Positions 1 to 64,000 of a stretch of DNA of 64,000 bases are shown here, piece after piece; positions within the stretch are counted from its first letter, which is position 1, and each line of letters starts with the position of its first letter. Made by a program: the position numbers and the translations under genes. The notes under the pieces were generated by a model. It was not told where the DNA came from. It made no database searches and saw only the letters and a list, made by a program, of their open reading frames with translations. Source of the stretch: a virus; IMG/VR virus record IMGVR_UViG_3300045988_151707, positions 46,036 through 110,035 of that record; one strand, written 5' to 3'.

Positions 1-741
1 CGGATTGTGCTGTATCAGGGTGTGAAGCAGGGAGAGTTTTTCTTCCTTATCGGGTTTATCGTAATACATATCGGCGTATTTCCGAAAGATGCGGTATGCT
101 GTTTCCTTGTCTATCGACATAAAGAAGCCTGATATATCCATTGTGGCCACAAAGGCTTTCTTTGTGTAACCGTCCGTTACATCACGAATATTCCGCTGTA
201 TCTGCTCGATGGCTGTAGATGCGGAATGCCCGATACGGTTGCCGTGGCTTACATCACCATTGGCTTCGTGGACTTTCTCGCATATCTCGCCAAGCATCGG
301 AGCGACGTAGTGGTGCACGATACGGTCGGTGTAGTTAGCTGCAAACACTTCTCTATATACAGGATAGTCGAGGACAAAACAGATGCTTGTCTGTGGCTGG
401 TAGCCGTTGTCTATTCTGTTTATCAATTCATAAATACGCGACAGGTTGAAATGAAACGATGCTGCTTCGAGCGATGCGTGCTTGTTTTTGTAACAGTCAC
501 TTTCGGCAGCTATCCAGGCGGGCACTTTTTCTGATAAATCGGAGGCCGGCACCACGCTATAGGTGTTGTTCGTGTTGTTGTTGTTCAAGTTGCCATTTCC
601 CATGTTCACATACCAGGCGTTGTTGCCATTGTTGCGGACACAGCTCCAGACGTTGCCGCCCAGGACTTCTGCCCTGTTAATCGAAATAGCTTGCTCACCG
701 CAAGCACAGGGACCTTTATCATTAAACAGTTCTGCCGACAT
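1..741 (-). CDS. DGR reverse transcriptase, N-terminal 247 codons (runs off window edge)
   Basis: Uninterrupted minus-strand frame from ATG 741-739 to position 1. It is absent from the supplied ORF track because it has no stop in the window. The translation ..FVLDYPVYREVFAANYTDRIVHHYV..FVATMDISGFFMSIDKE.. resembles the RT finger/palm motifs of Bordetella phage Brt (..SDFSKFFPSID..). The functional start is uncertain: ATG 741, a Met inside the TR, or GTG 525. Confidence 0.85.
   Translation of the reverse strand, partial: MSAELFNDKGPCACGEQAISINRAEVLGGNVWSCVRNNGNNAWYVNMGNGNLNNNNTNNTYSVVPASDLSEKVPAWIAAESDCYKNKHASLEAASFHFNLSRIYELINRIDNGYQPQTSICFVLDYPVYREVFAANYTDRIVHHYVAPMLGEICEKVHEANGDVSHGNRIGHSASTAIEQIQRNIRDVTDGYTKKAFVATMDISGFFMSIDKETAYRIFRKYADMYYDKPDKEEKLSLLHTLIQHNP
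541..666 (-). repeat. DGR template repeat (TR), 126 bp
   Basis: Aligns without gaps to 1185-1310. All 15 mismatches fall at plus-strand T (coding-strand A) of this copy. The coding strand is AAC-rich (..NNGNN..NLNNNNTNNT..). Confidence 0.92.
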
Positions 742-51110: not shown

Positions 51111-52361
51111 CTACTCACGCCTAAAGGCATGAGCTTCGGAGATACCAATACCTCCTCTCTTTTCCTGCTTCTTCCTATCATTGCTTTTTAGGACACGAGG
51201 TCGGTCATCCACAAGAGGACAGTCCACAGGCTTGACTTTCCCACGCTCCGTGGGTAGGGCTTTCAAGCCAAATTCCTTGATGTTGCAAGCGGCATTGAAG
51301 TCCCGGTCGTGATGTGTACCACATTCCGGGCATGTCCAACTGCGCTCGCTAAGATTCAATTCTTTGTACACATAGCCGCATTTGCCGCAGGTCTTCGAAC
51401 TTGGGGCAAAGCGGTCTATCTTAATGAGGTTCACGCCATACCAACTGCACTTGTATTCAAGCAAAGTTAGGAACATACCGAAAGAAGCATCTCCTACGGC
51501 TTGTGCCAAATGGTGGTTACGCTGCATACCTTTCACGTTCAAATCTTCCATGCAGATAGTGCGCACTTGGCTGTCGTGCGTGAGTGCATGGGTGATTTTG
51601 TGAAGGCTGTCCTTACGGCTGTTAGCTATGTGTTCCTGTAGCCGGGCTACACGGATGCGTGCCTTGTTGCGGTTGGCAGAACCTTTCTGTTTGCGGCTCA
51701 ACCGCTTTTGTAGCAACTTCAAGCGGTCTAAGCTTCTCTGCAAGTTCTTAGGATTGTCAAACGTGCGTCCGTCAGAACATACGGCAAGCGACTTGATACC
51801 TAAATCAATACCTAAAGCCGTATCTCCCTGTATCGCTGAAGCCGGAAGTTCCTGGATGGTCGTATCAACCAACACGGAAGCAAAGTATCTACCCGAAGGT
51901 GTCATGCTGACGGTAACGGTCTTCACGGTACCTTTGAACCTGCGGTGCAGCACGGCAGGAATGTCTTTCGCCTTGGGGATTGTGATTGTTCCTTTCACAA
52001 AGTCCACGTTGCAATGCTGCGGACACTGGAAACTCTGCTTGCTTTTCCGGCTCTTGAATTTCGGAAAACCGACCGCATGAGTGTCACGGAAGAAGTTTTT
52101 GTAGGCGGTATCAAGGTTGCGGATGGAATTCAGGAGGGCTTGTGAATTTACCTCTGTCAGCCATTGGTTTTCCTTCTTCAGTTCGTTCACCATCCGGTCT
52201 TGAACTTCCTTGTAAGCTACAGACTTCTTATCCTGCTTGTAGGCTTCAATCTTCAGGTTGAGTGCCCAGTTATAGACAAAGCGGCAGCAGCCGAAGGTCT
52301 TGGCAAATAAGACCTTCTGTTCTTCTGTCGGATAGATTCTATATTTGTAGGCTCTCAGCAT
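51111..52361 (-). CDS. tnpB: TnpB (OrfB) RuvC-like RNA-guided nuclease family
   Basis: MLRAYKYRIYPTEEQKVLFAKTFGCCRFVYNWAL..GIDLGIK..CGKCG..CPECGTHHDRDFNAACNI. Confidence 0.9.
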   Translation of the reverse strand: MLRAYKYRIYPTEEQKVLFAKTFGCCRFVYNWALNLKIEAYKQDKKSVAYKEVQDRMVNELKKENQWLTEVNSQALLNSIRNLDTAYKNFFRDTHAVGFPKFKSRKSKQSFQCPQHCNVDFVKGTITIPKAKDIPAVLHRRFKGTVKTVTVSMTPSGRYFASVLVDTTIQELPASAIQGDTALGIDLGIKSLAVCSDGRTFDNPKNLQRSLDRLKLLQKRLSRKQKGSANRNKARIRVARLQEHIANSRKDSLHKITHALTHDSQVRTICMEDLNVKGMQRNHHLAQAVGDASFGMFLTLLEYKCSWYGVNLIKIDRFAPSSKTCGKCGYVYKELNLSERSWTCPECGTHHDRDFNAACNIKEFGLKALPTERGKVKPVDCPLVDDRPRVLKSNDRKKQEKRGGIGISEAHAFRRE

Positions 52362-54179: not shown

Positions 54180-54388
54180 AGTATCCAATCAATTTTTTCT
54201 AATTCTTCTTTCTCTTTTGGAGTTAATGAACACAGAAAATCACAATTACTATAGTATTCACCATTTTCTTCCGGATCTGAAAATGCACTTTCAGAAGCAC
54301 TAACTATTTTCTGTATGGCATAATATAATTCTAAACTTATACCAGTTATGCTTACCGTCCCGTTCTTATTAAATCTTGTTCTGCTCAT
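54176..54388 (-). CDS. hypothetical protein (cassette gene)
   Basis: Trimmed to MSRTRFNKNG, whose ATG sits in the conserved AGAATTATG context. Confidence 0.5.
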   Translation of the reverse strand: MSRTRFNKNGTVSITGISLELYYAIQKIVSASESAFSDPEENGEYYSNCDFLCSLTPKEKEELEKIDWIL

Positions 54389-54455
54389 AATTCTTTTTAT
54401 TTTATAGTTACACATCTGTTCCGGACCAGGATGCAAACCTGAATCCGGAAGTAGG
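54389..54455 (-). repeat. intergenic unit U3
   Basis: Plus-strand box GTTACAC at 54407-54413. Stem ttccgga/tccggaa. Confidence 0.65.
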
Positions 54456-54917
54456 TTAGATGCGCATCATGTCAAGACATTGTTTTTCGGTGATACGACC
54501 TTTTGCAAAGCAGTAATGAAGTGCTGTATAAGATATTCGATATAGTTTACGATCATGTTTTATGCAAAACTCTTTTCCGTTTAGCATATCAATAAACTGC
54601 ATGTAATCTGTCATTGTATTGAATAGCTTTTTCAGACAATTCTCTATAGTCATGGACTTTACAATAAGTTTACCTGATGGATTTATTCTATCTGGAACTC
54701 CATTTATTACTATTTCTGTCCCATGTGACTTGAAATCCAGCAAGCAGTCTTGAATGTCATATATCTCGTTTCCATTCCCATGATAATAGAAAGCGAACTG
54801 ATTAAATTTGCTTTGCAGACCCTTTTCTATAATATAATTTGCTATTCTTACAGCTTCACCTTTAAGTATTGTTTCACCATTAGCTACTTTCTCGATTAAA
54901 TTCTTTTCTACTTTCAT
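54456..54917 (-). CDS. hypothetical protein (cassette gene)
   Basis: 153-aa ORF. Confidence 0.6.
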   Translation of the reverse strand: MKVEKNLIEKVANGETILKGEAVRIANYIIEKGLQSKFNQFAFYYHGNGNEIYDIQDCLLDFKSHGTEIVINGVPDRINPSGKLIVKSMTIENCLKKLFNTMTDYMQFIDMLNGKEFCIKHDRKLYRISYTALHYCFAKGRITEKQCLDMMRI

Positions 54918-54981
54918 AATTCCAAAATTTTAGTTAGACAATGGTTCCCGTACCAATCTTTTAAATCGGTACGAAATTTAC
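54918..54981 (-). repeat. intergenic unit U4
   Basis: Box GTTAGAC at 54933-54939. Stem cgtacc/ggtacg. Confidence 0.75.
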
Positions 54982-55281
54982 TTAGCGGACTCTTTTTATT
55001 TCTTGATTATATTTGCTCTGTAGAAAATACAAGTCTTCTTTGTAAAGGGTATTCAGATATTCCAGTATTTTACTTTTACTCCTTACTTTTTTTAGCTTTG
55101 AAATACTACCCATTCCGCTACTGTCAGTCCTTACATCGCCATTTTTAAATATTAAAAGAATACATCCTGTATATCCTTCCCAGTCTGTTATGATTTCTCC
55201 TACCTGGAATTTACCATACTCTTTTACTTCACCTTTATTCGCATAATGACGAAAATAGTGATGCTCAATGTTTATTACCAT
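54982..55281 (-). CDS. hypothetical protein (cassette gene)
   Basis: 99-aa ORF. Confidence 0.55.
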   Translation of the reverse strand: MVINIEHHYFRHYANKGEVKEYGKFQVGEIITDWEGYTGCILLIFKNGDVRTDSSGMGSISKLKKVRSKSKILEYLNTLYKEDLYFLQSKYNQEIKRVR

Positions 55282-55346
55282 AATTCAAATGTTTTAAAAG
55301 TTAGACAATTGATCCCGATGTGCCGACAATAGCACACCGGAATTAA
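55282..55346 (-). repeat. intergenic unit U5
   Basis: Box GTTAGAC at 55300-55306, followed by a stem-loop. Confidence 0.75.
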
Positions 55347-55592
55347 TCAGCTTACTCCTGCCATACTGAGAAATTCTTTCTCTGTAAGAATAAACAGATC
55401 CAACTTATAAGCTTTTTCTAATTTACCGGTATCACGAGTGTATGCGTCATCGCCAACAATCACAAAGTTGACTGCGTTTGATACGTTTTTCTTAAACACA
55501 CCACCAAGGCTCTCTATCATTTTGATGTAATATTTACGACCTTTGGACAAAGTTCCTGTAATAGAGAATGATTTTCCTGCTAATGTTTCCAT
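55347..55592 (-). CDS. stand-alone BRCT-domain protein
   Basis: ..LAGKSFSITGTLSKGRKYYIKMIESLGGVFKKNVSNAVNFVIVGDD..KLEKAYKLDLFILTEKEFLSM parallels the NAD-ligase BRCT pattern. Confidence 0.65.
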   Translation of the reverse strand: METLAGKSFSITGTLSKGRKYYIKMIESLGGVFKKNVSNAVNFVIVGDDAYTRDTGKLEKAYKLDLFILTEKEFLSMAGVS

Positions 55593-55664
55593 AATTCATT
55601 TATTTTAAAAGTTAGACATTGCAGCCGGACTAAGTTTACAGACTTAGACCGGTTTCAATTACTT
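55593..55664 (-). repeat. intergenic unit U6
   Basis: Box GTTAGAC at 55611-55617. Stem ccggactaagt/acttagaccgg. Confidence 0.75.
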
Positions 55665-55925
55665 TTATTTGCAAGCTTTCATCTTTCTAAACTTACCTTC
55701 ATAATCAGCATTTACATGTCCTGATTGATAAAGGGTTATATTCCTACTTCTTCGATACATTTTATATTCTCCCCACCAATATGCGTTATATTTCTTACGC
55801 ATATACTTGAGAAGATTTATAACTTCGTCTGGCTTTTCCATTGAATATTCAAACCATTCTGAAATGCCACCTTTCCCATCATTATTAAATACAACTACTA
55901 ATAGACCTGATTTTTGATTTCTCAT
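55665..55925 (-). CDS. hypothetical protein (cassette gene)
   Basis: 86-aa ORF. Confidence 0.55.
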   Translation of the reverse strand: MRNQKSGLLVVVFNNDGKGGISEWFEYSMEKPDEVINLLKYMRKKYNAYWWGEYKMYRRSRNITLYQSGHVNADYEGKFRKMKACK

Positions 55926-55994
55926 AATTCTTTATTTTAAGTTAGGCAATGTAACCGGATGGAGTATCACTTTCCATCCGGATATTCTGTTAAT
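55926..55994 (-). repeat. intergenic unit U7
   Basis: Box GTTAGGC at 55941-55947. Stem ccggatgga/tccatccgg, loop gtatcac. Confidence 0.75.
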
Positions 55995-56312
55995 TTAAGA
56001 AATCTCTTTTTTTGTCTTACTGGTTAATTTACCAATAGGATGACAAAAGTCTGCCGATAATACAGATAAAACTCCCATATATTCTTTTTTTACTTTTTCT
56101 TTTGATAATAACTTACATACTTTTATTCTGTTTCTAATTGTTTCCAGAAAATAATCTGCTTCTGTTAAAGGAATATATATTTTATAATCATGATTACGCA
56201 GCCATTCAAAATACTTATATTCATCCTTGTAATTCCCTGACTTATCACACCATATTCTTTTTTTAGCTATTATTTCTGATATATGAATTTCTTTTAATTG
56301 ATTTTTACCCAT
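55995..56312 (-). CDS. hypothetical protein (cassette gene)
   Basis: 105-aa ORF. Confidence 0.55.
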   Translation of the reverse strand: MGKNQLKEIHISEIIAKKRIWCDKSGNYKDEYKYFEWLRNHDYKIYIPLTEADYFLETIRNRIKVCKLLSKEKVKKEYMGVLSVLSADFCHPIGKLTSKTKKEIS

Positions 56313-56376
56313 AATTCCATTATTTTTAGTTAGACAATGTAGACAGATAGAGTATTAATCTCCATCCGTCTATGAA
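56313..56376 (-). repeat. intergenic unit U8
   Basis: Box GTTAGAC at 56329-56335, followed by a stem-loop. Confidence 0.75.
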
Positions 56377-56562
56377 TCAAAAGTTATCAGAAATTTTCTT
56401 TTCTACTTTTTTCTTGAATTTTTCTATCATTTCTTCAATCTCATACCGTAGCTCTTCATTTTCCAGATAGGAACAATATGTTCTGCTGTTATCAATAGAC
56501 TGTAAAATGTTTGTTACAGCATATTGATTTTTCTCTGATAAACTAAGTTTCTTTATATTCAT
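56377..56562 (-). CDS. hypothetical protein (cassette gene)
   Basis: 61-aa ORF. Confidence 0.5.
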   Translation of the reverse strand: MNIKKLSLSEKNQYAVTNILQSIDNSRTYCSYLENEELRYEIEEMIEKFKKKVEKKISDNF

Positions 56563-56627
56563 AATTCCAATAATTTTAGTTAGACAATAGCACCGGAGGG
56601 AGCCTCACTCTCCCATCCGGCATGTGA
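56563..56627 (-). repeat. intergenic unit U9
   Basis: Box GTTAGAC at 56579-56585. Stem ccggagggag/ctcccatccgg. Confidence 0.75.
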
Positions 56628-57023
56628 TTAGTCTTTGTTTTCCCGAGCAAAATCTTCAATGCGTTTTATCTCTTCAGGAGTAAGTAGGTGCTTATACTCT
56701 TCTTCGTATTTTACTTCATGTCTAAAGATTCGAGCATATTCTCTGTAGTCTCCATGCTCTTCCATTAATGAATCACAGCATATCCAGCAACCTCCCGGGA
56801 ATACAAAGCATAGTTTTTTAGCTTCAGGGTTTTTATTTATGACTACCAGATCATTATACATTGGGCTTTCAATTTCAAAATCCCAATATCCAAGAAAATC
56901 ACCAAACCAATTTACCTTAATGTTTGTAGTGATTAAATTGTCCTTTATTGAAGTAACCATAAATTTTTTGCGGTCTTTTCTGATATAGCTTTCACCTACT
57001 TTAAAGAAGCAATCTTGTGTCAT
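56628..57023 (-). CDS. hypothetical protein (cassette gene)
   Basis: 131-aa ORF. Confidence 0.6.
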   Translation of the reverse strand: MTQDCFFKVGESYIRKDRKKFMVTSIKDNLITTNIKVNWFGDFLGYWDFEIESPMYNDLVVINKNPEAKKLCFVFPGGCWICCDSLMEEHGDYREYARIFRHEVKYEEEYKHLLTPEEIKRIEDFARENKD

Positions 57024-57088
57024 AATTCCAATATTTAAAAGTTAGACAATAGCAGCCGGAGGAGTATCACTCTCCGTCCGGCATTCGG
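57024..57088 (-). repeat. intergenic unit U10
   Basis: Box GTTAGAC at 57041-57047. Stem gccggaggag/ctccgtccggc, loop tatcac. Confidence 0.75.
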
Positions 57089-57901
57089 TTAACTCATGGG
57101 AATGTAAACGTCTTTTGCATTTGGATTCGGGCGATAGATAGTGAGTGTTTCCCCGTCGTTATGAGCGAAACATCTTACCTTGCTGCCGTTGCTCCTGTCT
57201 TCCAACGGCTTGCATCCTTCAGGTAGTTCTTCAAGCTTCCAGAAATATTTGCTCCTCAGAAACTGATTTGTGTAATACTGACCGGAATCGTCTTTCCTGT
57301 AAGTCAGTCCCACATAACCTGCCCATTCTTTAAAGGCCTTGATAGTATAGAACTCTTTAAATATGTACATGAAATCCTGCATGATTACTACCTTTGAACG
57401 TCGTTCTCTCATGTAGTGAGGACTGTTGAAGTATATTTCATGCATAGGTATTATCTTCATGTCTTTTTGGCGGAACTTTTTCACTTTTATAGTGAAGTAA
57501 ATACCTTGTTGGGCTCCTGCTCCATAACAACCCCAGGTCCAGAATACGCGGTCTTCATATCCAACAAACTCAAAGTTTGAAGAATGAATATGAGTAAATG
57601 CGCCACCTGAAGTTGAGAATGATTTACCGTTTGTCCATGAGCTTCCGCTTTCACATACATACATCAATCCGAATTTATCTACACTCTCAACCAGCGCATG
57701 ATTGTAAAAGCTATTGTAATTTACAAACTCTATCATATCTCCTTTCTGCGGCTGCATAAGTGATTTGTCATAGTGGGTAAAAAACTCTTTTTCCACATCA
57801 TTTGCTATCTGATAGTTGCTGTTCCATTCTTTTTCGGTAGTGTAATATCCGTTACCATTCCAACACATGTTTGACTTTTTAAAATCTTCTAATGTCATCA
57901 T
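57089..57901 (-). CDS. hypothetical protein (cassette gene)
   Basis: 270-aa ORF. Confidence 0.65.
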   Translation of the reverse strand: MMTLEDFKKSNMCWNGNGYYTTEKEWNSNYQIANDVEKEFFTHYDKSLMQPQKGDMIEFVNYNSFYNHALVESVDKFGLMYVCESGSSWTNGKSFSTSGGAFTHIHSSNFEFVGYEDRVFWTWGCYGAGAQQGIYFTIKVKKFRQKDMKIIPMHEIYFNSPHYMRERRSKVVIMQDFMYIFKEFYTIKAFKEWAGYVGLTYRKDDSGQYYTNQFLRSKYFWKLEELPEGCKPLEDRSNGSKVRCFAHNDGETLTIYRPNPNAKDVYIPMS

Positions 57902-57966
57902 AATTCCAATAGTTTAAGTTAGACAATAAGTAAGGCAGTCGGAATCACTTCCGGCTGCCCTCTACA
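57902..57966 (-). repeat. intergenic unit U11
   Basis: Box GTTAGAC at 57918-57924. Stem ggcagtcggaa/ttccggctgcc. Confidence 0.75.
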
Positions 57967-59091
57967 TTACAGATAGAAAGCTTCTCTCAGCTCTGGTTCG
58001 CGTTTCTTTGAGAAAACCCAACCGGCACCGCATTTCAGTTTACCGTTGAATCGTCCGCCAAGCTCCTTGAGCTTCGCTACATAGTCGCGGGTGTTACCGA
58101 TGATAGCCACAGCCTTTTCGCTATAATCTACAATCTGCAAATCAGATTTATTTTCTACGGCTTTTGCTGTAGAACTTACAGGTTTTTCCTCCGGTTTCTG
58201 ATAAAGGTCTATATCACTCAGATAACCTCGTAAACAACTTGAAGCAGAAGTGTACTGGTTAGATTCCACAAACTCTGAATAAGACTTTGGGAGAAACTGA
58301 TTTGTTTCAGTTATTCCGATAGCCTCTGGATGTTTCGCATAGAATTTTTCTTTTGTCTCATTCCAGATTTTATCAGAATAGCTGCGTTCCAAATCCGGCA
58401 TATAACCGATTCCACCATATAAGGAAGTAAACTCGCTTTTGATGTGTTCTTCAATGTCTTCGTATCCGTTAAATGTCGTATCTACAAACTTAGAACAGAT
58501 TTTAGCAACCATCTTTTCGGTCGGACCGTCCGTCCATCTTATGTTGTAGCTTTTTGAACCATTCTTTTTGGAATAGAATTTTACACCTGGGAAAGCACGC
58601 TTCAGAAGCACAAGCATGTTTTGTTTGGCCGTCTTGTCGTCATAGCTATTACACTCAGTCAGTATCGAGCCATACTCTTTTCGGAGCTGATCGGTACGAT
58701 TTTGGCTGGCTATACGTTTGTTTTTCTCCAGACGCTCGTTCCATGCCTGCTGTACTTCGCACTGGTGAACCAGTTTGGCTATTTCCTGCTCGGGCATACG
58801 GTAGTCGGGCTCTTTGTCGTCCCAATAGTAACCAATACCGAACTTCTTTGATAACGGCTGGTCGTCCTGCCCTACTCTCCAGTATGCGAAACGGTGCGGT
58901 CTACCGATTTCTGCCATTTTCTGCCGTCCGTGAATGTCTGGTGCAGAAGTCACGATAAACTTACCGCTTTCGCTTCCTCCATAACCTAAGAACCCATAAA
59001 CGCGCTGGCCTACTTCGAGAACCTTTTTACCGATTTCTACCATCTGAAAACCATTTGACCAATCCATTCTGTACATTTTTCCTGATTCCAT
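57967..59091 (-). CDS. hypothetical protein (largest cassette gene)
   Basis: 374-aa ORF. The C-terminal motif ..DYSEKAVAIIGNTRDYVAKLKELGGRFN..GAGWVFSKK.. is seen in other mobile-element proteins, but I cannot name the family. Confidence 0.65.
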   Translation of the reverse strand: MESGKMYRMDWSNGFQMVEIGKKVLEVGQRVYGFLGYGGSESGKFIVTSAPDIHGRQKMAEIGRPHRFAYWRVGQDDQPLSKKFGIGYYWDDKEPDYRMPEQEIAKLVHQCEVQQAWNERLEKNKRIASQNRTDQLRKEYGSILTECNSYDDKTAKQNMLVLLKRAFPGVKFYSKKNGSKSYNIRWTDGPTEKMVAKICSKFVDTTFNGYEDIEEHIKSEFTSLYGGIGYMPDLERSYSDKIWNETKEKFYAKHPEAIGITETNQFLPKSYSEFVESNQYTSASSCLRGYLSDIDLYQKPEEKPVSSTAKAVENKSDLQIVDYSEKAVAIIGNTRDYVAKLKELGGRFNGKLKCGAGWVFSKKREPELREAFYL

Positions 59092-59154
59092 AATTCTATA
59101 AATTTTAAGTTAGACAATAGGCCCCGGCAGATTCTCAAAAACCTGCCGGAATGT
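59092..59154 (-). repeat. intergenic unit U12
   Basis: Box GTTAGAC at 59109-59115. Stem ccggcag/ctgccgg. Confidence 0.75.
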
Positions 59155-59697
59155 TTAAGCTACACAGAAGTAGAAATCACCCTGATGGCGGTATCCGCTG
59201 GTAAGCAATGTCCTGGAGTATGCTTCGTAGTCGAAATACTGACCAAACTCAGTTTGAAGTTCTTCAGGCCATTTCATTTCCGCCATATAGGTGGCAAACG
59301 CTTCTTCAGAATCAAATTGCCCTGCGTATTTATCTCTGAACTTTTCTACGAGCTCTTCACCGTCTTTGATATAGGAATAATCCACAAAGTACATATCAAG
59401 AAACGTAAAGAATGCTTCTGTCTCTGTGTCATCCATATCTTTTGCACACTGAATGATACCAAATATTCGCGGGTCGATATAGCTTTCGTTTATCATACCA
59501 TCCGGTATGTTTGAGTAGTCCTGATACATAAATTCCGGTTCGTCTTCGTCACTGTGTAAATCTTTACAGGAATCCAGAAATTCTTCCTTAGATTGATAGT
59601 CTGCCAGATTCATCCATTGTCCGAACAATGAACCGCTGTTATATTCCTTGTATGTTCCTACATAAACACGTGCTTTCAACAATTTTGATTTTTCCAT
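59155..59697 (-). CDS. ardA: ArdA-family antirestriction protein
   Basis: ..ARVYVGTYKEYNSGSLFGQWMNLADY..EPEFMYQDY.. and C-terminal ..YFDYEAYSRTLLTSGYRHQGDFYF.. parallel Tn916 ArdA (VYIANLGKYNEGELVGAWF..; YIDYQAYGRDLDLSGTF..). Confidence 0.8.
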   Translation of the reverse strand: MEKSKLLKARVYVGTYKEYNSGSLFGQWMNLADYQSKEEFLDSCKDLHSDEDEPEFMYQDYSNIPDGMINESYIDPRIFGIIQCAKDMDDTETEAFFTFLDMYFVDYSYIKDGEELVEKFRDKYAGQFDSEEAFATYMAEMKWPEELQTEFGQYFDYEAYSRTLLTSGYRHQGDFYFCVA

Positions 59698-59759
59698 AAT
59701 TCCTTTGTTTTTAGTTAGACATGGCAGCCGATACAGTTATAACACCGTATCGGCTAATA
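59698..59759 (-). repeat. intergenic unit U13
   Basis: Box GTTAGAC at 59714-59720. Stem agccgatac/gtatcggct. Confidence 0.75.
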
Positions 59760-60128
59760 CTATGCAGCTTTGTAGCCATCCTCTGTCTCAATTATCACAC
59801 CCTGACTGATTGCATAGCTTACAGCCTGCGATGTAACAATGTTGAAAACATCTGATTCTCTTTTGATGTCATCCATGTACATGTCATTCCAATCTACCTG
59901 AACGTCATCATCTTTCACCCATACGTCAATCCATTCGCCCCACCAACCGTCAGGAAGCTGTACATACACCGCGCAACTGCCCGGACCGTCTATCTCAATT
60001 TTTGTGGCTACGGTTTCATGCTTGCATATTCTTCTTACTATTTTCTTATGATCGGGACGATGATTCATTTGTGAATACATAGCTTTTGTAAGTCTTTCCC
60101 AATCCTGAGCTGTCAATGATTTTGTCAT
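59760..60128 (-). CDS. hypothetical protein (cassette gene)
   Basis: 122-aa ORF. Confidence 0.6.
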   Translation of the reverse strand: MTKSLTAQDWERLTKAMYSQMNHRPDHKKIVRRICKHETVATKIEIDGPGSCAVYVQLPDGWWGEWIDVWVKDDDVQVDWNDMYMDDIKRESDVFNIVTSQAVSYAISQGVIIETEDGYKAA

Positions 60129-60200
60129 AATTCCTTGGTTTTAGTTAGACATAAAAGAAGCCGGAAGCAATGATAAATCGCTTTCGGCTTGCATCTGATT
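60129..60200 (-). repeat. intergenic unit U14
   Basis: Box GTTAGAC at 60144-60150. Stem aagccggaagc/gctttcggctt. Confidence 0.75.
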
Positions 60201-60272
60201 TATAGGTCTTTATTCACCTCAATCTCTTCAATAATATAATTGTCATCGGCATTTTCACGACATTGGGTTTGG

Positions 60273-60428
60273 TTATAGTTTTTCTAAACTCCATATATCA
60301 TCATCAGTAAGCTTTGTCTTACCCTTTATTCTTTTCATCGCTTTTTTACGTGTAGAATAAATTCCTAATAAATCACGGCTTGCATGACTTAGCCATGCAT
60401 CAGCCTGAAAAACTGCAAATACTATCAT
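60273..60428 (-). CDS. small hypothetical protein (51 aa, cassette gene)
   Basis: Read manually: MIVFAVFQADAWLSHASRDLLG.. The ATG lies in the TGAATTATG context and is preceded by unit U15. Confidence 0.45.
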   Translation of the reverse strand: MIVFAVFQADAWLSHASRDLLGIYSTRKKAMKRIKGKTKLTDDDIWSLEKL

Positions 60429-60493
60429 AATTCAATCAATTTTAAGTTAGTAATAAGAAAGCCCATGCAGTTACATACCGCACAGGCTTTTTG
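60429..60493 (-). repeat. intergenic unit U15
   Basis: Box GTTAGTA at 60446-60452, followed by a stem-loop. Confidence 0.7.
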
Positions 60494-60859
60494 TTACGAT
60501 GCTATACGCAAAGGATAGATAGTATATACATACCCCTGTCCTCCTCGATAGGCTATGGAATTGTGTGTGTCAAAATATTGCCATGACTGCATATCCTCCC
60601 AATATTCTTTGTTCAGGCGCTTCTCATAGAATGCAATCAGTATTTTATCTATACACTCTTTGTATTCTTCAAACCAATACCAGATAGTATCGTTATAATG
60701 AAAAAAATATCCTGTTTTGCCGTTTACACGTATCATGTCAGGATCTCCTTCAAACATAGCCAACTCATCAAAATCTTCTTCAGATTCATCCGTCCAGCCC
60801 TCTTTTACACATAAATCGTAAAATTCACCAGGGTTTTCAAGAATGTTTATAGCTCTCAT
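60494..60859 (-). CDS. hypothetical protein (cassette gene)
   Basis: 121-aa ORF. Confidence 0.6.
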   Translation of the reverse strand: MRAINILENPGEFYDLCVKEGWTDESEEDFDELAMFEGDPDMIRVNGKTGYFFHYNDTIWYWFEEYKECIDKILIAFYEKRLNKEYWEDMQSWQYFDTHNSIAYRGGQGYVYTIYPLRIAS

Positions 60860-60923
60860 AATTCAAAAGTTTATAGTTAGACAATAGAGGCCGTACCATA
60901 GTCAAATATGGTACAGCCTTACA
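60860..60923 (-). repeat. intergenic unit U16
   Basis: Box GTTAGAC at 60876-60882. Stem aggccgtaccata/tatggtacagcct. Confidence 0.75.
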
Positions 60924-61520
60924 TCATACAGCTATTGAAGATACGCTATGACATACCTTGCCGTCTTCAAAGAATGTGTACTGATTGCAGTCGCATTCGT
61001 CCTGAGCCTGTTCGTCTGTTATCTCATAGAAATAACTGTAGCCCCATTCCTCATACTTTCCGCAAACATCCAGATACCAGGAAGCTATATTTTCCCTTAC
61101 TTTTTCAACTATAGCGTTTTCCTTGTCGGTATAGGCTTCTTCTTCCAACTCTACATCATTACTGCTTGCATAGCAATAGCGGTGTCCACGTGTGAATACC
61201 ACTTTGTTTATAAGTTTTTCGGCTATACCACGTTGGAATCCTCTAAGGCCGTCCATAGCTATCTTTTTAAGCTCATTGTTCTTTATAAAGTCTGAGAAAT
61301 AAACCTCTCCATAAAGAGAGAATCCGTCACCCTGACAATAATTCAGTCTATATTGCGGAGTCAGCTCGAAGCCATACTGACATCTGAAGTCTTCTTTTAC
61401 GCCAGACGAGAATATATACGGCTCACGTCCTTCCAACAGGAAGTTTTTAGCTTCTTCTTTTGCCTGTTCGCTTAATTCGCTATACTCATACACATTTTTC
61501 TCGATAGTAATTGTCTTCAT
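60924..61520 (-). CDS. hypothetical protein (cassette gene)
   Basis: 198-aa ORF. Confidence 0.65.
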   Translation of the reverse strand: MKTITIEKNVYEYSELSEQAKEEAKNFLLEGREPYIFSSGVKEDFRCQYGFELTPQYRLNYCQGDGFSLYGEVYFSDFIKNNELKKIAMDGLRGFQRGIAEKLINKVVFTRGHRYCYASSNDVELEEEAYTDKENAIVEKVRENIASWYLDVCGKYEEWGYSYFYEITDEQAQDECDCNQYTFFEDGKVCHSVSSIAV

Positions 61521-61584
61521 AATTCCTATAGTTTTAAGTTAGTAATCGTGTCTGGAAGTACCGTAAAGCACCTCCAGCATGTAA
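61521..61584 (-). repeat. intergenic unit U17
   Basis: Box GTTAGTA at 61538-61544, followed by a stem-loop. Confidence 0.7.
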
Positions 61585-61788
61585 TTAATACCCCATAGCG
61601 TCGTAGTACGATTTATTTTTTACGTACTCTTTTGCTATTTCGTAGTCACTGCAATCTTCGCCGAGCTTTGCGCTAATACTTTCGTATGCGCTTTTGGGCA
61701 TAACATAGATAACCTGTTCGCTCCAGTCGGAACGACCGGCGAAATACAAAGCCACGAATAAAAACACGCAGCACAGAATGACTTTCAT
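61585..61788 (-). CDS. small secreted/membrane protein
   Basis: MKVILCCVFLFVALYFAG.. is a signal-like N-terminus. Confidence 0.5.
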   Translation of the reverse strand: MKVILCCVFLFVALYFAGRSDWSEQVIYVMPKSAYESISAKLGEDCSDYEIAKEYVKNKSYYDAMGY

Positions 61789-61861
61789 TTTCTTTTTGAT
61801 AACTCAAACTATTTAAGAAGTTTGCAGGCCGTACACCGGTAAAGGTGAACGGCCTGATAGG

Positions 61862-62062
61862 TCATAGTCTGATAGCATTCTGGCAAGCCATATCTGTAGA
61901 TAGAATATGTAAAGCTTCTATATCCGAAATTTGCTTGTATTTTGCTCCCCGGTCTGAATATTCCATACATACCTTTTTTGCATGATTCAGCATGTTTGTT
62001 ACGCATAGATTCCCTATTTTACCTTTGAATGTAGTATAGGTTATCAAATAAAATTTTTCCAT
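61862..62062 (-). CDS. hypothetical protein
   Basis: 66-aa ORF. The upstream sequence is a degenerate copy of the unit box. Confidence 0.45.
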   Translation of the reverse strand: MEKFYLITYTTFKGKIGNLCVTNMLNHAKKVCMEYSDRGAKYKQISDIEALHILSTDMACQNAIRL

Positions 62063-62771
62063 AATCCAAATTTTACATAGTTATACATACAAGAAGTGCC
62101 ATGCACCCAAAGGCGCATAGCACTACATAGGTAGGGGTTTTCCGTACCACCCCCGAAGCTGGTTATCGGTACGTTGACGCATACCAGCCTATATGCACCA
62201 TGATACACTATTTGCATAGGTTCACGGATACACTTTTCGCATAGACTACCTTTGCAGGCGCACCGCCATACAGACACACGTGTCCGCATGGTACGTTGAT
62301 TCCATAGGCCCGGATAACTCCCAGCCCGTTCCATACATACGCTAAAACAGTATGGATCTTTTCCGGTTAACTACTCCGGCATACACCCAAGATTGAACAG
62401 GGCATAGCACACCCGTACATGAATCCATACGGACACGGTGCACCCTGACTGATCGTTCAACACGTTGCAGGACACACCACACCCATACGGGTACAGTTAT
62501 GCCATAGAATTATGAATTATGATTTTCGCGGCCCTGGATACCTTCAGACTCTTGGCCTGGATGACTATAGGCGCATGGACACACCTATCCGCACAACACA
62601 TAGTAAACCCGTGTTGTGTTTCAAGACGGCCCACAGTGCAGCCTTATGCAGCTGGAGTGTATAGTCCCAAATACTACATATAGATACCCTTTTCGCCGGC
62701 CGTATGATATAGAATATATTTTTGTGGGTGTCCGGGAATCGGACCCGGACGAATACCATACACCCTAGAGA
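62063..62771. other. ORF-free ~0.7-kb CA-rich region (candidate structured RNA or cis-acting site)
   Basis: No plausible ORF on either strand. GC content is visibly higher than in the flanking genes. More than 13 CATAG/CATAC/CATGG motifs. Local hairpins at 62592-62618 and 62730-62750. Confidence 0.5.
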
Positions 62772-63311
62772 TTAAGCCGCGTCTACAATACGTTCTGCAA
62801 TTTGTAGCAACATATCTTCAGAAGCGTCTAAAAATTCTACTTTTAAAGCTTGCAATGTAGCGTTTATCTTAGATTCACGTTTTTCTGCTTTTTTAGTTTC
62901 TATCTTTGCTGCTTTCTCCTTTGCTGCTTTTTCCCGTTTTTCCTTTTCCTGATTTATTTGTAGCAAACTTTCTAAGCTTGCAAAAAAATCGTCTTCATCG
63001 AATCTTATTGGAACGTATTCGAAATATTTTTTCCCTATCTGGACTACTTTTAATTCGTTCCCGTCCAATGTTTCAATATCTGATAATCTTTTTAATTTAC
63101 AGAAAACAGGCAAACCGTCTCCAAGCTCGAAGCTCAACAACATAGAAAGATCAACTTTCTTTATACCGTAAAAATCTAAGTATCTTTTGATTTTTTCCTG
63201 ATCACGGTTTTTGTTTATTGTATTCATAACGCCAAACGGTGATCTATTAAGCTTTTTAGTTTCTTTTTTAGCTTCGCGTCTCAATACTGATTTAGATACA
63301 TTTGTTTTCAT
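62772..63311 (-). CDS. Lys/Glu-rich hypothetical protein
   Basis: 179-aa ORF preceded by unit U18. Confidence 0.6.
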   Translation of the reverse strand: MKTNVSKSVLRREAKKETKKLNRSPFGVMNTINKNRDQEKIKRYLDFYGIKKVDLSMLLSFELGDGLPVFCKLKRLSDIETLDGNELKVVQIGKKYFEYVPIRFDEDDFFASLESLLQINQEKEKREKAAKEKAAKIETKKAEKRESKINATLQALKVEFLDASEDMLLQIAERIVDAA

Positions 63312-63345
63312 AAGTCCATAATTTTAAGTTAGTATATAGTAACGG
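63312..63345 (-). repeat. intergenic unit U18
   Basis: cataagtccataattttaaGTTAGTA. Box at 63328-63334. Confidence 0.65.
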
Positions 63346-63641
63346 GTATCGACTATGCACGACCCGGGAGAACATAGTTCACCCGTTAGGCTACCTTTCG
63401 GCTCCTTTCCCGCTATCAATATATTACTATCTCATACGGATTTTTTGTTACAGACTAACCGCGCCGCGTGTACTTTGTTCCGTTTGCTTTCGTGTGTAGC
63501 TGTCAAACTATGACAGCCGGGAAAGTATCAAACTATGATAGTGAACAGGATCACCAGCCGGAACGCAGCTTACGTTTATACGGTTTTTTTTCAAAGAACA
63601 TTTTTTCTTTCTGGATAATTTCAGGAGCGGAAAGAAAAACG

Positions 63642-63722
63642 TATCTTTGTTTTGCAACAAACAGAAGAAAGTTTTATCTTTCTTTTTCCCGGGCGGGTAT
63701 TCCTGTAATACCCGCTTTTTTT
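63642..63722 (+). ncRNA. candidate small RNA (-7 box to intrinsic terminator)
   Basis: TAtcTTTG at 63642-63649. Hairpin agaaag/ctttct, then the terminator gcgggtat-tcctgta-atacccgc plus T7 (63693-63722). There is no credible ORF here. Confidence 0.3.
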
Positions 63723-63915
63723 ATACCTGGAAAGAACGTTGTATCAGTTTTGGCAAGCCTGATTTACTTGTGTAACCTTTTGTTTTTCGATTACACTACG
63801 AAGGTACTCAAATTTCTCTATTGCGCAATAGGTATACACATTTTTCTCTATTATTTTAACCGTTATTTAATATTCAGTCCAAAATGAAAGGTTTATTCAC
63901 ATTTTCGCGCGCTTT

Positions 63916-63951
63916 CTGGTGGCGTTCCTACATGGTGAGGAACGCCACCAG
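63916..63951. repeat. perfect 13-bp inverted repeat (hairpin)
   Basis: ctggtggcgttcc-tacatggtga-ggaacgccaccag. Confidence 0.85.
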
Positions 63952-64000
63952 CGGACACCAGCGGACACCAGCGGACACCAGCGGACACCAGCGGACACCA
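63952..64000. repeat. tandem decamer repeat cggacaccag, at least 4.9 copies, truncated by the window
   Basis: Read directly. It continues to the last base of the window. Confidence 0.9.

What the first reader, a model, noticed from the sequence alone, without database searches (positions are those of the whole stretch)
62063..62771. 709-bp ORF-free, CA-rich island inside a tightly packed gene array
Elsewhere in the window intergenic gaps are under 100 nt. Here about 0.7 kb has no credible ORF on either strand; the two track ORFs are W/C/R-rich and overlap real features. The base composition shifts to clearly higher GC, with CA-rich runs on the plus strand. A short motif S-CAT-A/G-S recurs at least 13 times (CATAG, CATAC or CATGG; on the minus strand YATG-S). 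Several local hairpins are visible: 62592-62618 with an 8-bp stem, 62730-62750 with a 7-bp stem, and 62143-62173. The region could be a large structured non-coding RNA (phage-associated classes such as GOLLD or ROOL are of this size), a packaging or replication site, or a protein-binding array.
Basis: seen in the sequence. Interest (0 to 1): 0.62.

Follow-up and report, generated by a model that had tools for sequence, protein, structure and literature searches.

The report
Large structured RNA in gut phage
The gene-free island most likely encodes a folded non-coding RNA of about 675 nt, kept almost unchanged in a clade of ~100-kb human-gut phages while the gene beside it diverges, and its most invariant, exposed stretch is the exact complement of the start-codon box shared by the phage's early genes, so it may switch those genes off.

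Summary
Window 62063-62771 has no conserved ORF, has higher GC (0.48 against 0.42), and carries CATA[GC] 18 times where about 2 are expected.

The sense strand is the minus strand, the same strand as the genes. The element runs from 62765 to 62091. It lies directly after a 179-aa gene and ends in a 13-bp hairpin.

It is present in every related contig found: 35 IMG/VR contigs and 28 human-gut metagenome contigs. Where the flanking protein is only 43-55% identical, the island is still 87-95% identical.

Across 36 distinct copies, 159 predicted pairs are 99.2% canonical. Fifty-two pairs show changes on both sides, against 2-17 in shifted controls. G-U pairs make up 18% of cells, so the fold fits one strand only.

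The "motif" is UAUG, a G-U wobble palindrome that sits inside the helices.

The longest invariant run (26 nt) is predicted single-stranded. It contains UCAUAAUUC twice, the complement of the GAAUUAUGA box at about 17 early-gene starts.

The 5' end is tRNA-like and forms a full cloverleaf in some variants.

No Rfam family matches; it is not ROOL or GOLLD.

The parts
62091..62765 (-). Whole conserved non-coding element (about 675 nt), read as RNA on the gene strand
   Evidence: Conserved block in all relatives. 159 consensus pairs are 99.2% canonical, and 52 pairs show double changes. SCI is 0.81 on the sense strand and 0.59 on the antisense strand.
62726..62765 (-). 5' tRNA-like module. It consists of an acceptor-like stem, GGGUG (62765-62761) with CACCC (62730-62726), and a T-arm-like hairpin CCGGG-UCCGAUU-CCCGG (62748-62732).
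   Evidence: This fold is the MFE. The hairpin matches the tmRNA T-arm consensus with one loop mismatch and its stem covaries. Variants L116 and L120 have a complete cloverleaf at this position, scoring tRNA-Sec 26.9 bits and mascRNA 26.5 bits, E about 0.03, both below the gathering scores.
62580..62690 (-). Variable expansion segment. The window carries the long form; most relatives carry a short form.
   Evidence: Alignments.
62545..62586 (-). Two short covarying hairpins (62586-62569 and 62559-62545), enclosed by longer-range stems 62698-62683 / 62542-62529.
   Evidence: Stem variants GGCGCAC/GUGCGCC, GGUGCAC/GUGCACC, GGUGUAC/GUACACC and GGUACAC/GUGUACC, and CAGGC/GUCUG, CGGUC/GGCCG and CCGGC/GCCGG.
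62500..62525 (-). Longest invariant run, AAAUCAUAAUUCAUAAUUCUAUGGCA. Positions 62522-62507 hold two overlapping copies of UCAUAAUUC, the complement of the early-gene start box GAAUUAUGA.
   Evidence: 26 nt are invariant in 36 copies; the next longest run is 10 nt. Unpaired probability is 0.74-0.89 against a mean of 0.35. TCATAATTC occurs only twice on this strand in 110 kb, and predicted duplexes with the 17 array starts are -9.8 to -14.8 kcal/mol.
62403..62506 (-). Long, nearly continuous hairpin of about 37 bp, rich in G-U pairs. It includes UAUG:UAUG wobble-palindrome pairings.
   Evidence: helices 10-12. 21 of 37 pairs vary and 9 show double changes.
62363..62379 (-). Hairpin CCGG-AGUAGUUAA-CCGG with a nearly invariant 9-nt loop
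   Evidence: helix 13.
62266..62356 (-). Three covarying hairpins: 62356-62330, 62326-62307 and 62291-62266. In relatives the tops are often the palindrome ACGUGU/CGUG.
   Evidence: Helix 62356-62330 changes GUAUGG to GCACGG or GCGCGG with a compensating partner. There are 3, 4 and 3 double-change pairs respectively.
62178..62256 (-). Composite long hairpin capped by a GNRA tetraloop (GCAA at 62215-62212; GUAA in L055)
   Evidence: 10 of the 17 apical pairs show double changes.
62133..62154 (-). Hairpin with a covarying stem (GGGGG/CCCC, GGCGG/CCGCC, GGAGG/CCUCU) and a conserved loop UGGUWCGGAAAA
62095..62124 (-). 3' terminal 13-bp hairpin (UUCG or UUUG loop). It is equivalent to the hairpin that closes every cassette of the gene array, and is the likely transcript end.
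   Evidence: Terminator-like site. 9 of 13 pairs vary and 5 show double changes.
62063..62094 (-). Box plus start (TTGTATGTATAAC..GGATTATG) of the next gene, 61862-62062. This stretch is not part of the RNA.
   Evidence: Same unit as 16 other array genes. Homology to relatives ends at about 62052-62056.
62772..63311 (-). 179-aa gene (P0001) immediately upstream. It is always found with the RNA but diverges fast.
   Evidence: The same 35 IMG/VR contigs hold both the protein and the RNA core. Protein identity is 43-55% where the RNA is 87-95% identical. It has no Pfam or PHROG match and no PDB fold match.

Best explanation
**What it is.** The island is the gene for a highly structured non-coding RNA of about 675 nt, on the minus strand from 62765 to 62091. 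It is specific to one clade of ~100-120-kb human-gut phages. Their gene content (DUF5053, HU-HIG) suggests Bacteroidales hosts.

**How it is probably made (inferred).** It is transcribed with, or directly behind, the first gene of the early cassette array. A tRNA-like module at its 5' end, probably an RNase P-type processing signal, would free it from that mRNA. The 13-bp terminal hairpin would end it.

**Shape (shown by comparison).** The body consists of about 20 helices, including a ~37-bp hairpin and GNRA- and UUCG-capped hairpins. UAUG pairs with UAUG, CAUG or CAUA inside these helices.

**How it probably acts (inferred).** Between two folded domains, the scaffold exposes an invariant single strand with two overlapping copies of UCAUAAUUC. 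This pairs with the GAAUUAUGA start box shared by about 17 early genes, including the ArdA gene. Pairing would cover their start codons and shut off or tune early-gene translation together, in trans or on read-through transcripts.

**Probabilities.**
- Structured functional RNA on this strand: about 0.9.
- 5' tRNA-like processing signal: about 0.5.
- Action through anti-start-box pairing: about 0.35-0.4.
For: **Conservation**
- The island is present in all 23 + 12 IMG/VR relatives and in 28 gut metagenome contigs.
- It is 87-95% identical where the upstream gene is 65-72% identical at the nucleotide level and 43-55% at the protein level.
- The upstream CDS cannot be aligned by blastn in most distant loci, while the island can.

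**Structure**
- A3 alignment (32 sequences): 99.6% of cells are paired. 14 pairs have double changes, against 5.3 +/- 1.4 in shuffles (0 of 500 shuffles reach the observed value). Slid controls are 26-52% paired.
- 36 sequences: 52 of 159 pairs have double changes, against 2-17 in shifted controls. There are 116 extra canonical pair types and 32 non-canonical types.

**Strand**
- 17.8% of cells are G-U. The same helices are only 81.6% canonical on the other strand.
- SCI is 0.81 against 0.59.
- MFE is -253.6 against -194.7 kcal/mol.
- All neighbouring genes are on this strand.

**Not coding:**

**Anti-start box**
- It is the longest invariant run, 26 nt.
- It is among the most accessible 16-mers in 7 homologues.
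- TCATAATTC occurs only twice on this strand in 110 kb, both times here. GAATTATG occurs 19 times on this strand, 16 of them within the 54-62-kb array region, 15 at starts of real array genes. Duplex energies are -9.8 to -14.8 kcal/mol, against a background mean of -5.2.

**tRNA-like 5' end:**
Against: - There is no transcript evidence.
- The anti-start box and the start box are both invariant, so their pairing cannot be tested by covariation.
- A duplex of 9-12 bp that is mostly A-U is modest. The segment could instead bind a protein or the ribosome.
- The tRNA-like hits are below Rfam gathering scores. ARAGORN finds no tRNA. The window's own copy has only the acceptor-like and T-arm-like parts, and the alifold consensus pairs CACCC with a distant GGGUGU instead.
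- The consensus structure was derived from the same sequences on which pairs were counted, which inflates the percentage paired. Many copies are closely related.
- A scaffold of 675 nt is far larger than a simple antisense function needs.
Confidence: 0.5

Rival explanations
1. It is a structured RNA, but its role is architectural or a decoy rather than antisense. It could be an ornate RNA that self-assembles, or that forms an RNP with the co-inherited 179-aa protein. Alternatively it could soak up a host factor, for example a defence nuclease, an RNA-binding protein or a tRNA-recognising enzyme, early in infection. The invariant single strand would then be a protein- or RNA-docking site.
For: - It has the size and complexity of ROOL or GOLLD: GNRA and UUCG caps, conserved loops (AGUAGUUAA, UGGUWCGGAAAA), and recurrent palindromic hairpin tops ACGUGU/CGUG that could form kissing contacts.
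- It sits first in an array that contains ArdA and many small orphan genes.
- It co-occurs strictly with the 179-aa protein.
- It has a tRNA-like module.
Against: - The protein diverges to 43% identity while the RNA stays about 90% identical, so a tight co-evolving RNP is not evident.
- L116 and L120 carry a different upstream protein with the same RNA core.
- This reading does not explain why the most conserved stretch is the exact complement of the array's start box.
- No oligomerisation or binding data exist.
Confidence: 0.25
2. It is a cis-acting leader of one long early transcript. The folded RNA would stay with the transcription or processing machinery. It would act as a processive antiterminator that lets RNA polymerase read through the ~17 hairpins of the array. 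Alternatively it would act as an attenuator or translation gate for the next gene, by pairing its anti-start box with that gene's start in cis.
For: - There is no cassette-type box between the 179-aa gene and the island, so co-transcription is likely.
- Every cassette ends in a terminator-like hairpin.
- When the downstream start was included, RNAalifold paired UUCAUAAUUC with the next gene's GRAUUAUGRR (helix 9).
Against: - Known antiterminator RNAs are much smaller than this element (HK022 put is about 70 nt, EAR about 120 nt; sizes from memory).
- The downstream cassette is swapped between relatives while the RNA is kept.
- The RNA's own strong 3' hairpin lies between the seed and the next gene.
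Confidence: 0.15
3. It is a DNA-level element: a replication origin, a packaging site or a protein-binding array. The CATA[GC] repeats would be binding sites, or the element would form hairpins in single-stranded DNA.
For: - There are 18 copies of a short motif in direct orientation.
- It lies about 1.2 kb from a decamer tandem-repeat tract at which assemblies break.
- The neighbouring non-coding DNA 63312-64000 is also conserved.
- G-T wobble pairs are tolerated in ssDNA hairpins.
Against: - Motif spacing is irregular, from 4 to 72 nt.
- The motif itself can be replaced when its helix partner compensates.
- 52 pairs covary, with strand-specific wobble.
- GNRA and UUCG caps and a tRNA-like module are RNA features.
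- Contig ends of relatives lie in the decamer repeat, not in the island.
Confidence: 0.06
4. It is a decayed or recoded protein gene.
For: Short ORFs of 45-96 aa exist on both strands.
Against: - No ORF is shared by all copies.
- Frame-breaking indels of 1, 2, 4 and 11 nt dominate.
- One copy has no ORF above 37 aa.
- Conservation is higher than in the real genes alongside.
Confidence: 0.01

Closest known systems
ROOL and GOLLD large ornate RNAs (Rfam families; cryo-EM multimers reported in bioRxiv 10.1101/2024.12.08.627333)
   Same: - Length of 500-800 nt.
- Carried by phages or prophages.
- Many conserved helices with tetraloop caps.
- No known protein product.
   Different: - There is no covariance-model match at gathering scores or at E <= 10.
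- The hosts differ: Bacteroidales-type gut phages rather than Firmicutes.
- It is not next to tRNA arrays; the window has no tRNA.
- It carries an exposed anti-start-box and a 5' tRNA-like module.
- Oligomerisation was not tested.
C4 antisense RNA of phages P1/P7 (immI operon; biology recalled from memory)
   Same: - It is encoded upstream of its targets in the same operon.
- Its 5' end is made by RNase P from a longer transcript (inferred here from the tRNA-like module).
- It uses short complementary boxes to mask the translation start of downstream genes.
   Different: - C4 is about 77 nt and has one target region. This RNA is about 675 nt, and its box matches about 17 gene starts.
- There is no Rfam match.
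- Neither processing nor repression has been shown here.
mascRNA/MALAT1-type tRNA-like processing modules
   Same: Both are tRNA-like cloverleaves embedded in a long transcript that mark an RNase P cleavage site. The L116 variant aligns end to end with the mascRNA-menRNA and tRNA-Sec models.
   Different: - Scores of 26.5 and 26.9 bits are below gathering (42.5 and 47).
- The module is at the 5' end, not the 3' end, of the long RNA.
- The context is bacterial phage.
- The window's copy is reduced to an acceptor-like stem and a T-arm.
Multi-target bacterial sRNAs and sponges with a conserved single-stranded seed
   Same: The most conserved part is a short unpaired stretch flanked by stable helices.
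   Different: - It is about ten times larger than typical sRNAs.
- The targets are defined by a phage-specific start box rather than by diverse mRNA sites.

Membership tests
ROOL / GOLLD / other Rfam large RNAs (OLE, HEARO, raiA, 6S, tmRNA, RNase P) | Match to the family's covariance model | tested here: not met
   The whole window gives 0 matches at gathering scores. At E <= 10, region 61700-63700 gives only chance-level hits to unrelated families.
ROOL / GOLLD | Large (over 500 nt), phage-borne, multi-helix conserved fold | tested here: met
   The element is 675 nt with 159 conserved pairs and lies in ~100-kb phage contigs. This is a resemblance in kind only.
tRNA / tRNA-like structure | Cloverleaf with an acceptor stem and a GGUUCGAUUCC T-arm that reaches a tRNA model's threshold | tested here: inconclusive
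   L116 scores 26.9 bits on tRNA-Sec (gathering 47) and 26.5 bits on mascRNA (gathering 42.5), both full-length alignments, and its MFE is a cloverleaf. The window has only a T-arm-like hairpin and a 5-bp acceptor-like stem. ARAGORN finds none.
P1/P7 C4-type antisense RNA | Sequence complementarity to the translation start of downstream genes in the same operon | tested here: met
   UCAUAAUUC occurs twice and is complementary to GAAUUAUGA at the array starts. All 17 starts give duplexes of -9.8 to -14.8 kcal/mol.
P1/P7 C4-type antisense RNA | Homology to the C4 family; processing by RNase P; repression shown | tested here: not met
   There is no Rfam match to any family, so homology is not met. 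Processing and repression cannot be tested with these tools.
Replication origin / iteron array / pac site | Regularly spaced double-stranded repeat units, or a mapped terminus | tested here: not met
   Spacing is 4-72 nt and the motif is only 5-7 nt. The motif is replaceable when its helix partner compensates.
Protein-coding gene | An open frame conserved among relatives | tested here: not met

The most novel reading that the evidence does not exclude
This is a new class of ornate phage RNA. A tRNA-like module releases it from the first early mRNA. One exposed seed then pairs with the identical 5' start boxes of about 17 early (anti-defence-type) mRNAs at once. That would make it a single RNA molecule acting as a global off-switch or timer for a whole early-gene array, possibly as a multimer or an RNP.
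Probability: 0.3. Interest if true: 0.85.

Novelty: new variant of a known kind. Interest (0 to 1): 0.74.

Why it matters
Few large structured RNAs are known in bacteria and phages, and most still have no known function. This one comes with an unusually clear comparative signal: 52 covarying pairs, and conservation well above that of the adjacent genes. It also offers a concrete, testable handle on function, namely an invariant exposed seed complementary to a start box shared by an entire early-gene array that includes ArdA.

If the pairing model is right, it would show how a gut phage coordinates or shuts off its early and anti-defence programme with one RNA. If it is wrong, the element is still a new candidate for the ROOL/GOLLD type of RNA architecture, in the very abundant Bacteroidales phage-host system.

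Tried and rejected
- **Rfam.** Searches at gathering scores and at E <= 10 found no family.
- **tRNA/tmRNA.** ARAGORN found none.
- **GenBank phage collection.** There was no match with blastn of the locus, or with tblastn of the 179-aa protein and of a ~418-aa protein from the structural-gene block that I read as the major capsid protein (not checked against any family library). No cultured relative was found.
- **Species genomes.** The core 27-mer is absent from 185,579 species genomes, so no host or prophage was identified.
- **179-aa protein.** It has no Pfam or PHROG match. A PDB profile search gave nothing. The AlphaFold model (pLDDT 81.5) has no Foldseek match below E 0.1.
- **Coding reading.** Rejected.
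- **Inverted promoter unit on the plus strand.** Rejected. Only the GAATTATG part is present, not the TTGTCTAAC/TTAAAA boxes.
- **UAUG as an obligatory protein-binding word.** Weakened. In helix 62356-62330 it is replaced by GCACGG or GCGCGG with compensating changes.
- **More divergent homologues.** Profile protein search plus context look-ups reached 77% RNA identity. The metagenome scan added nothing more distant.
- **Relatives search.** The genome search 'relatives' is not available for a virus record.
- **Literature.** Two searches found no description of this RNA.

Full report
**Setting**

The window is the last 64 kb of a 110,035-bp IMG/VR virus record. The record's 'direct terminal repeat' lies inside a decamer tandem repeat, (CCAGCGGACA)n, so the record is probably a circular assembly cut within that repeat.

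Nearly all genes near the finding are on the minus strand. The island sits inside an array of about 17 small genes. Each gene is preceded by the same unit: a hairpin, an ATTGTCTAAC-type box, a TTAAAA-type box, and a GGAATT-ATG start. An earlier first-reader note pointed me to this unit. One array gene is ArdA.

Other genes in the record:
- By sequence motifs only: a terminase-like protein, a protein I read as the major capsid protein, a primase-helicase, a 2,206-aa protein I read as the tape-measure protein, and a DGR-type reverse transcriptase.
- By PHROG matches: a DNA methyltransferase and an integrase-like gene.
- I saw no phage RNA polymerase.

Relatives carry DUF5053 and HU-HIG genes, which suggests Bacteroidales hosts. 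All metagenome hits come from human gut.

**The observation**

The stretch has no credible ORF. Its GC is 0.48 against 0.42 for the window. Its plus strand is A+C-rich (A 198, C 194, G 147, T 170).

CATA[GC] occurs 18 times, about eight times the window density. The 500-nt bin 62001-62500 holds 16 copies, against a genome mean of 1.35 (sd 1.63).

Two corrections apply. The last 32 nt (62063-62094) are the box and start of the next gene. The conserved element starts at 62765, seven bases after the stop codon of the 179-aa gene 62772-63311.

**Conservation**

All 23 IMG/VR loci that encode a close relative of the 179-aa protein carry the island directly behind it. Homology stops at the next gene's start, where different cassettes follow.

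A 35-nt core is found in 35 IMG/VR contigs. Those are the same 35 contigs that hold a homologue of the protein. A 26-nt core is found in 28 further human-gut contigs. No copy exists in 185,579 species genomes.

In the loci where the upstream gene has diverged to 65-72% nucleotide identity (43-55% protein identity), the island is still 87-95% identical to the window. In most distant loci the CDS cannot be aligned by blastn at all, while the island can. The most divergent copies found, L101 and L104, are 77% and 80% identical.

No ORF is shared among the copies, and indels are mostly 1, 2, 4 or 11 nt. The element is therefore under strong selection at the nucleotide level and does not code for protein.

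**Structure and strand**

- **Energies.** The minus strand folds to -253.6 kcal/mol (z -3.3). The plus strand folds to -194.7 kcal/mol (z -2.5).
- **32 distinct copies.** 166 consensus pairs are canonical in 99.6% of cells. 14 pairs show changes on both sides, against 5.3 +/- 1.4 in column shuffles (0 of 500 shuffles reach the observed value). Sliding the partners by 1-3 columns drops pairing to 26-52%.
- **36 copies, including the more divergent ones.** 52 of 159 pairs show double changes, against 2-17 in shifted controls. There are 116 additional canonical pair types and 32 non-canonical types.
- **Strand specificity.** 17.8% of cells are G-U, and the same helices would be only 81.6% canonical on the other strand. 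The structure conservation index is 0.81 on the sense strand and 0.59 on the antisense strand.

Examples of covarying stems:
- GGCGCAC/GUGCGCC, GGUGCAC/GUGCACC, GGUGUAC/GUACACC, GGUACAC/GUGUACC.
- CAGGC/GUCUG, CGGUC/GGCCG, CCGGC/GCCGG.
- GGGGG/CCCC, GGCGG/CCGCC.

Caveats: the consensus fold was derived from these same sequences, and many copies are close relatives. The per-helix compensatory changes in L055, L101 and L104 are the most informative part.

**What the motif is**

On the RNA strand the motif reads [CG]UAUG[CG]. UAUG pairs with itself through two G-U wobbles, and GUAUGG pairs with CUAUGC. The RNA has nine GUAUG and nine CUAUG.

In the consensus fold most copies lie in helices, paired with UAUG, CAUG or CAUA. 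In helix 62356-62330, relatives replace GUAUGG by GCACGG or GCGCGG with compensating partners. Pairing, not the word itself, is what is kept there.

The CA-richness of the plus strand is the mirror image of a G+U-rich, wobble-rich RNA.

**Architecture (window coordinates, minus strand)**

- **5' module.** An acceptor-like stem, GGGUG (62765-62761) with CACCC (62730-62726), encloses a hairpin of 5 bp with the 7-nt loop UCCGAUU (62748-62732). This hairpin matches the T-arm consensus of tmRNA models with one loop mismatch.
- **Full cloverleaf in some variants.** In L116 and L120, which have a different upstream protein and a different 5' domain, the first 64 nt fold as a four-way cloverleaf. They align end to end with the tRNA-Sec model (26.9 bits, E 0.028) and the mascRNA-menRNA model (26.5 bits, E 0.027). 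Both scores are below gathering. ARAGORN calls no tRNA.
- **Variable segment** (62690-62580), present in long and short forms.
- **Two small covarying hairpins.**
- **Single-stranded stretch** (62527-62507).
- **A hairpin of about 37 bp** (62506-62403).
- **Further hairpins.** One has an invariant AGUAGUUAA loop, one is capped by a GNRA loop (GCAA, or GUAA in L055), and one has the conserved loop UGGUWCGGAAAA.
- **A terminal 13-bp hairpin** (62124-62095), like the one that closes each cassette.

**The exposed seed**

The longest invariant run in 36 copies is 26 nt: AAAUCAUAAUUCAUAAUUCUAUGGCA (62525-62500). The next longest is 10 nt.

Its first 19 nt are unpaired in the consensus. The 16-nt box inside it has an unpaired probability of 0.74-0.89, against a mean of 0.35. 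It ranks 1st to 14th among more than 600 windows in seven homologues.

The run contains two overlapping copies of UCAUAAUUC, the exact complement of GAAUUAUGA. On the gene strand of the whole genome:
- TCATAATTC occurs only at these two places.
- GAATTATG occurs 19 times on this strand, 16 of them within the 54-62-kb array region, 15 at starts of real array genes.

Predicted duplexes with all 17 array starts are -9.8 to -14.8 kcal/mol. Other gene starts average -5.2 kcal/mol, with a 5th percentile of -9.2. Because both partners are invariant, covariation cannot test this pairing.

**Interpretation**

Shown by comparison: a strand-specific, highly structured, strongly conserved non-coding element.

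Inferred:
1. It is an RNA made from the early transcript that starts at the 179-aa gene. No cassette box lies between that gene and the element.
2. The tRNA-like 5' module is a processing signal of the RNase P type, as in P1 C4 RNA or MALAT1/mascRNA (both recalled from memory).
3. The exposed seed masks the shared start box of the early genes and so tunes or ends their translation.

Rival readings, in order of weight:
- A scaffold or decoy RNA or RNP of the ROOL/GOLLD kind.
- A cis-acting leader or antiterminator.
- A DNA-level site (unlikely).

The 179-aa protein gave no functional clue.

**Limits**

No host genome or cultured relative was found. Two literature searches found no description of this RNA. 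The scan's earlier notes hold nothing on this element from other DNA.

Noticed in passing
window 63940-64000 and genome 1-402 (G000:C1): A decamer tandem repeat, (CCAGCGGACA)n with variants, runs across the record's ends. The 'direct terminal repeat' of 23-53 nt lies inside it. Contigs of many relatives also begin or end about 690 nt upstream of the 179-aa gene, so assemblies break here.
   Followed up: partly
window 63312-64000: The non-coding DNA upstream of the 179-aa gene is also conserved (70-89% identity) in relatives whose 179-aa CDS cannot be aligned by blastn. The fast-evolving gene therefore sits between two conserved non-coding blocks.
   Followed up: partly
window 62772-63311 (-): The 179-aa first gene of the array has no Pfam, PHROG or PDB-fold match. 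Its AlphaFold model (pLDDT 81.5) shows an N-terminal alpha/beta domain and a 54-residue Lys/Glu-rich helix. The motif SPFxVxNxINKNR is invariant, while the rest of the protein diverges to about 37% identity.
   Followed up: partly
window 1-741 (-), genome 45304-46776: This 490-aa protein has reverse-transcriptase motifs of the diversity-generating retroelement type (LPIGNFYSQ, RFVDDI). I recognised it by eye only and did not look for template or variable repeats.
   Followed up: no
window 54388-63311 (-): Seventeen genes share the unit of hairpin, ATTGTCTAAC-type box, TTAAAA-type box and GGAATT-ATG. GAATTATG occurs 19 times on this strand, against about 1.7 expected. Whether the unit is a promoter, a processing site or a translation signal is open.
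   Followed up: partly
L116:1036-1099 and the matching stretch of L120: A sub-lineage has a different protein upstream and a different 5' domain in the RNA. That domain starts with a complete tRNA-like cloverleaf, including a canonical GGUUCGAUUCC T-arm. The RNA core from the anti-start box onward is about 90% identical to the window.
   Followed up: partly
L010 and L046 (alignment A3 columns 570-593); L020, L027, L047 (A3 columns 15-37): Inserted pieces of 24 nt and 21 nt each bring additional GUAUGG/CUAUGC-type hairpins. The RNA thus appears to grow by adding small hairpin modules.
   Followed up: no
L029:1266-2564: In one relative, an IS605-type TnpB (OrfB) gene is inserted in the conserved non-coding region just upstream of the 179-aa gene homologue. 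In the window, the 416-aa ORF at 51111-52361 was called a TnpB in an earlier first-reader note; I did not check it.
   Followed up: no
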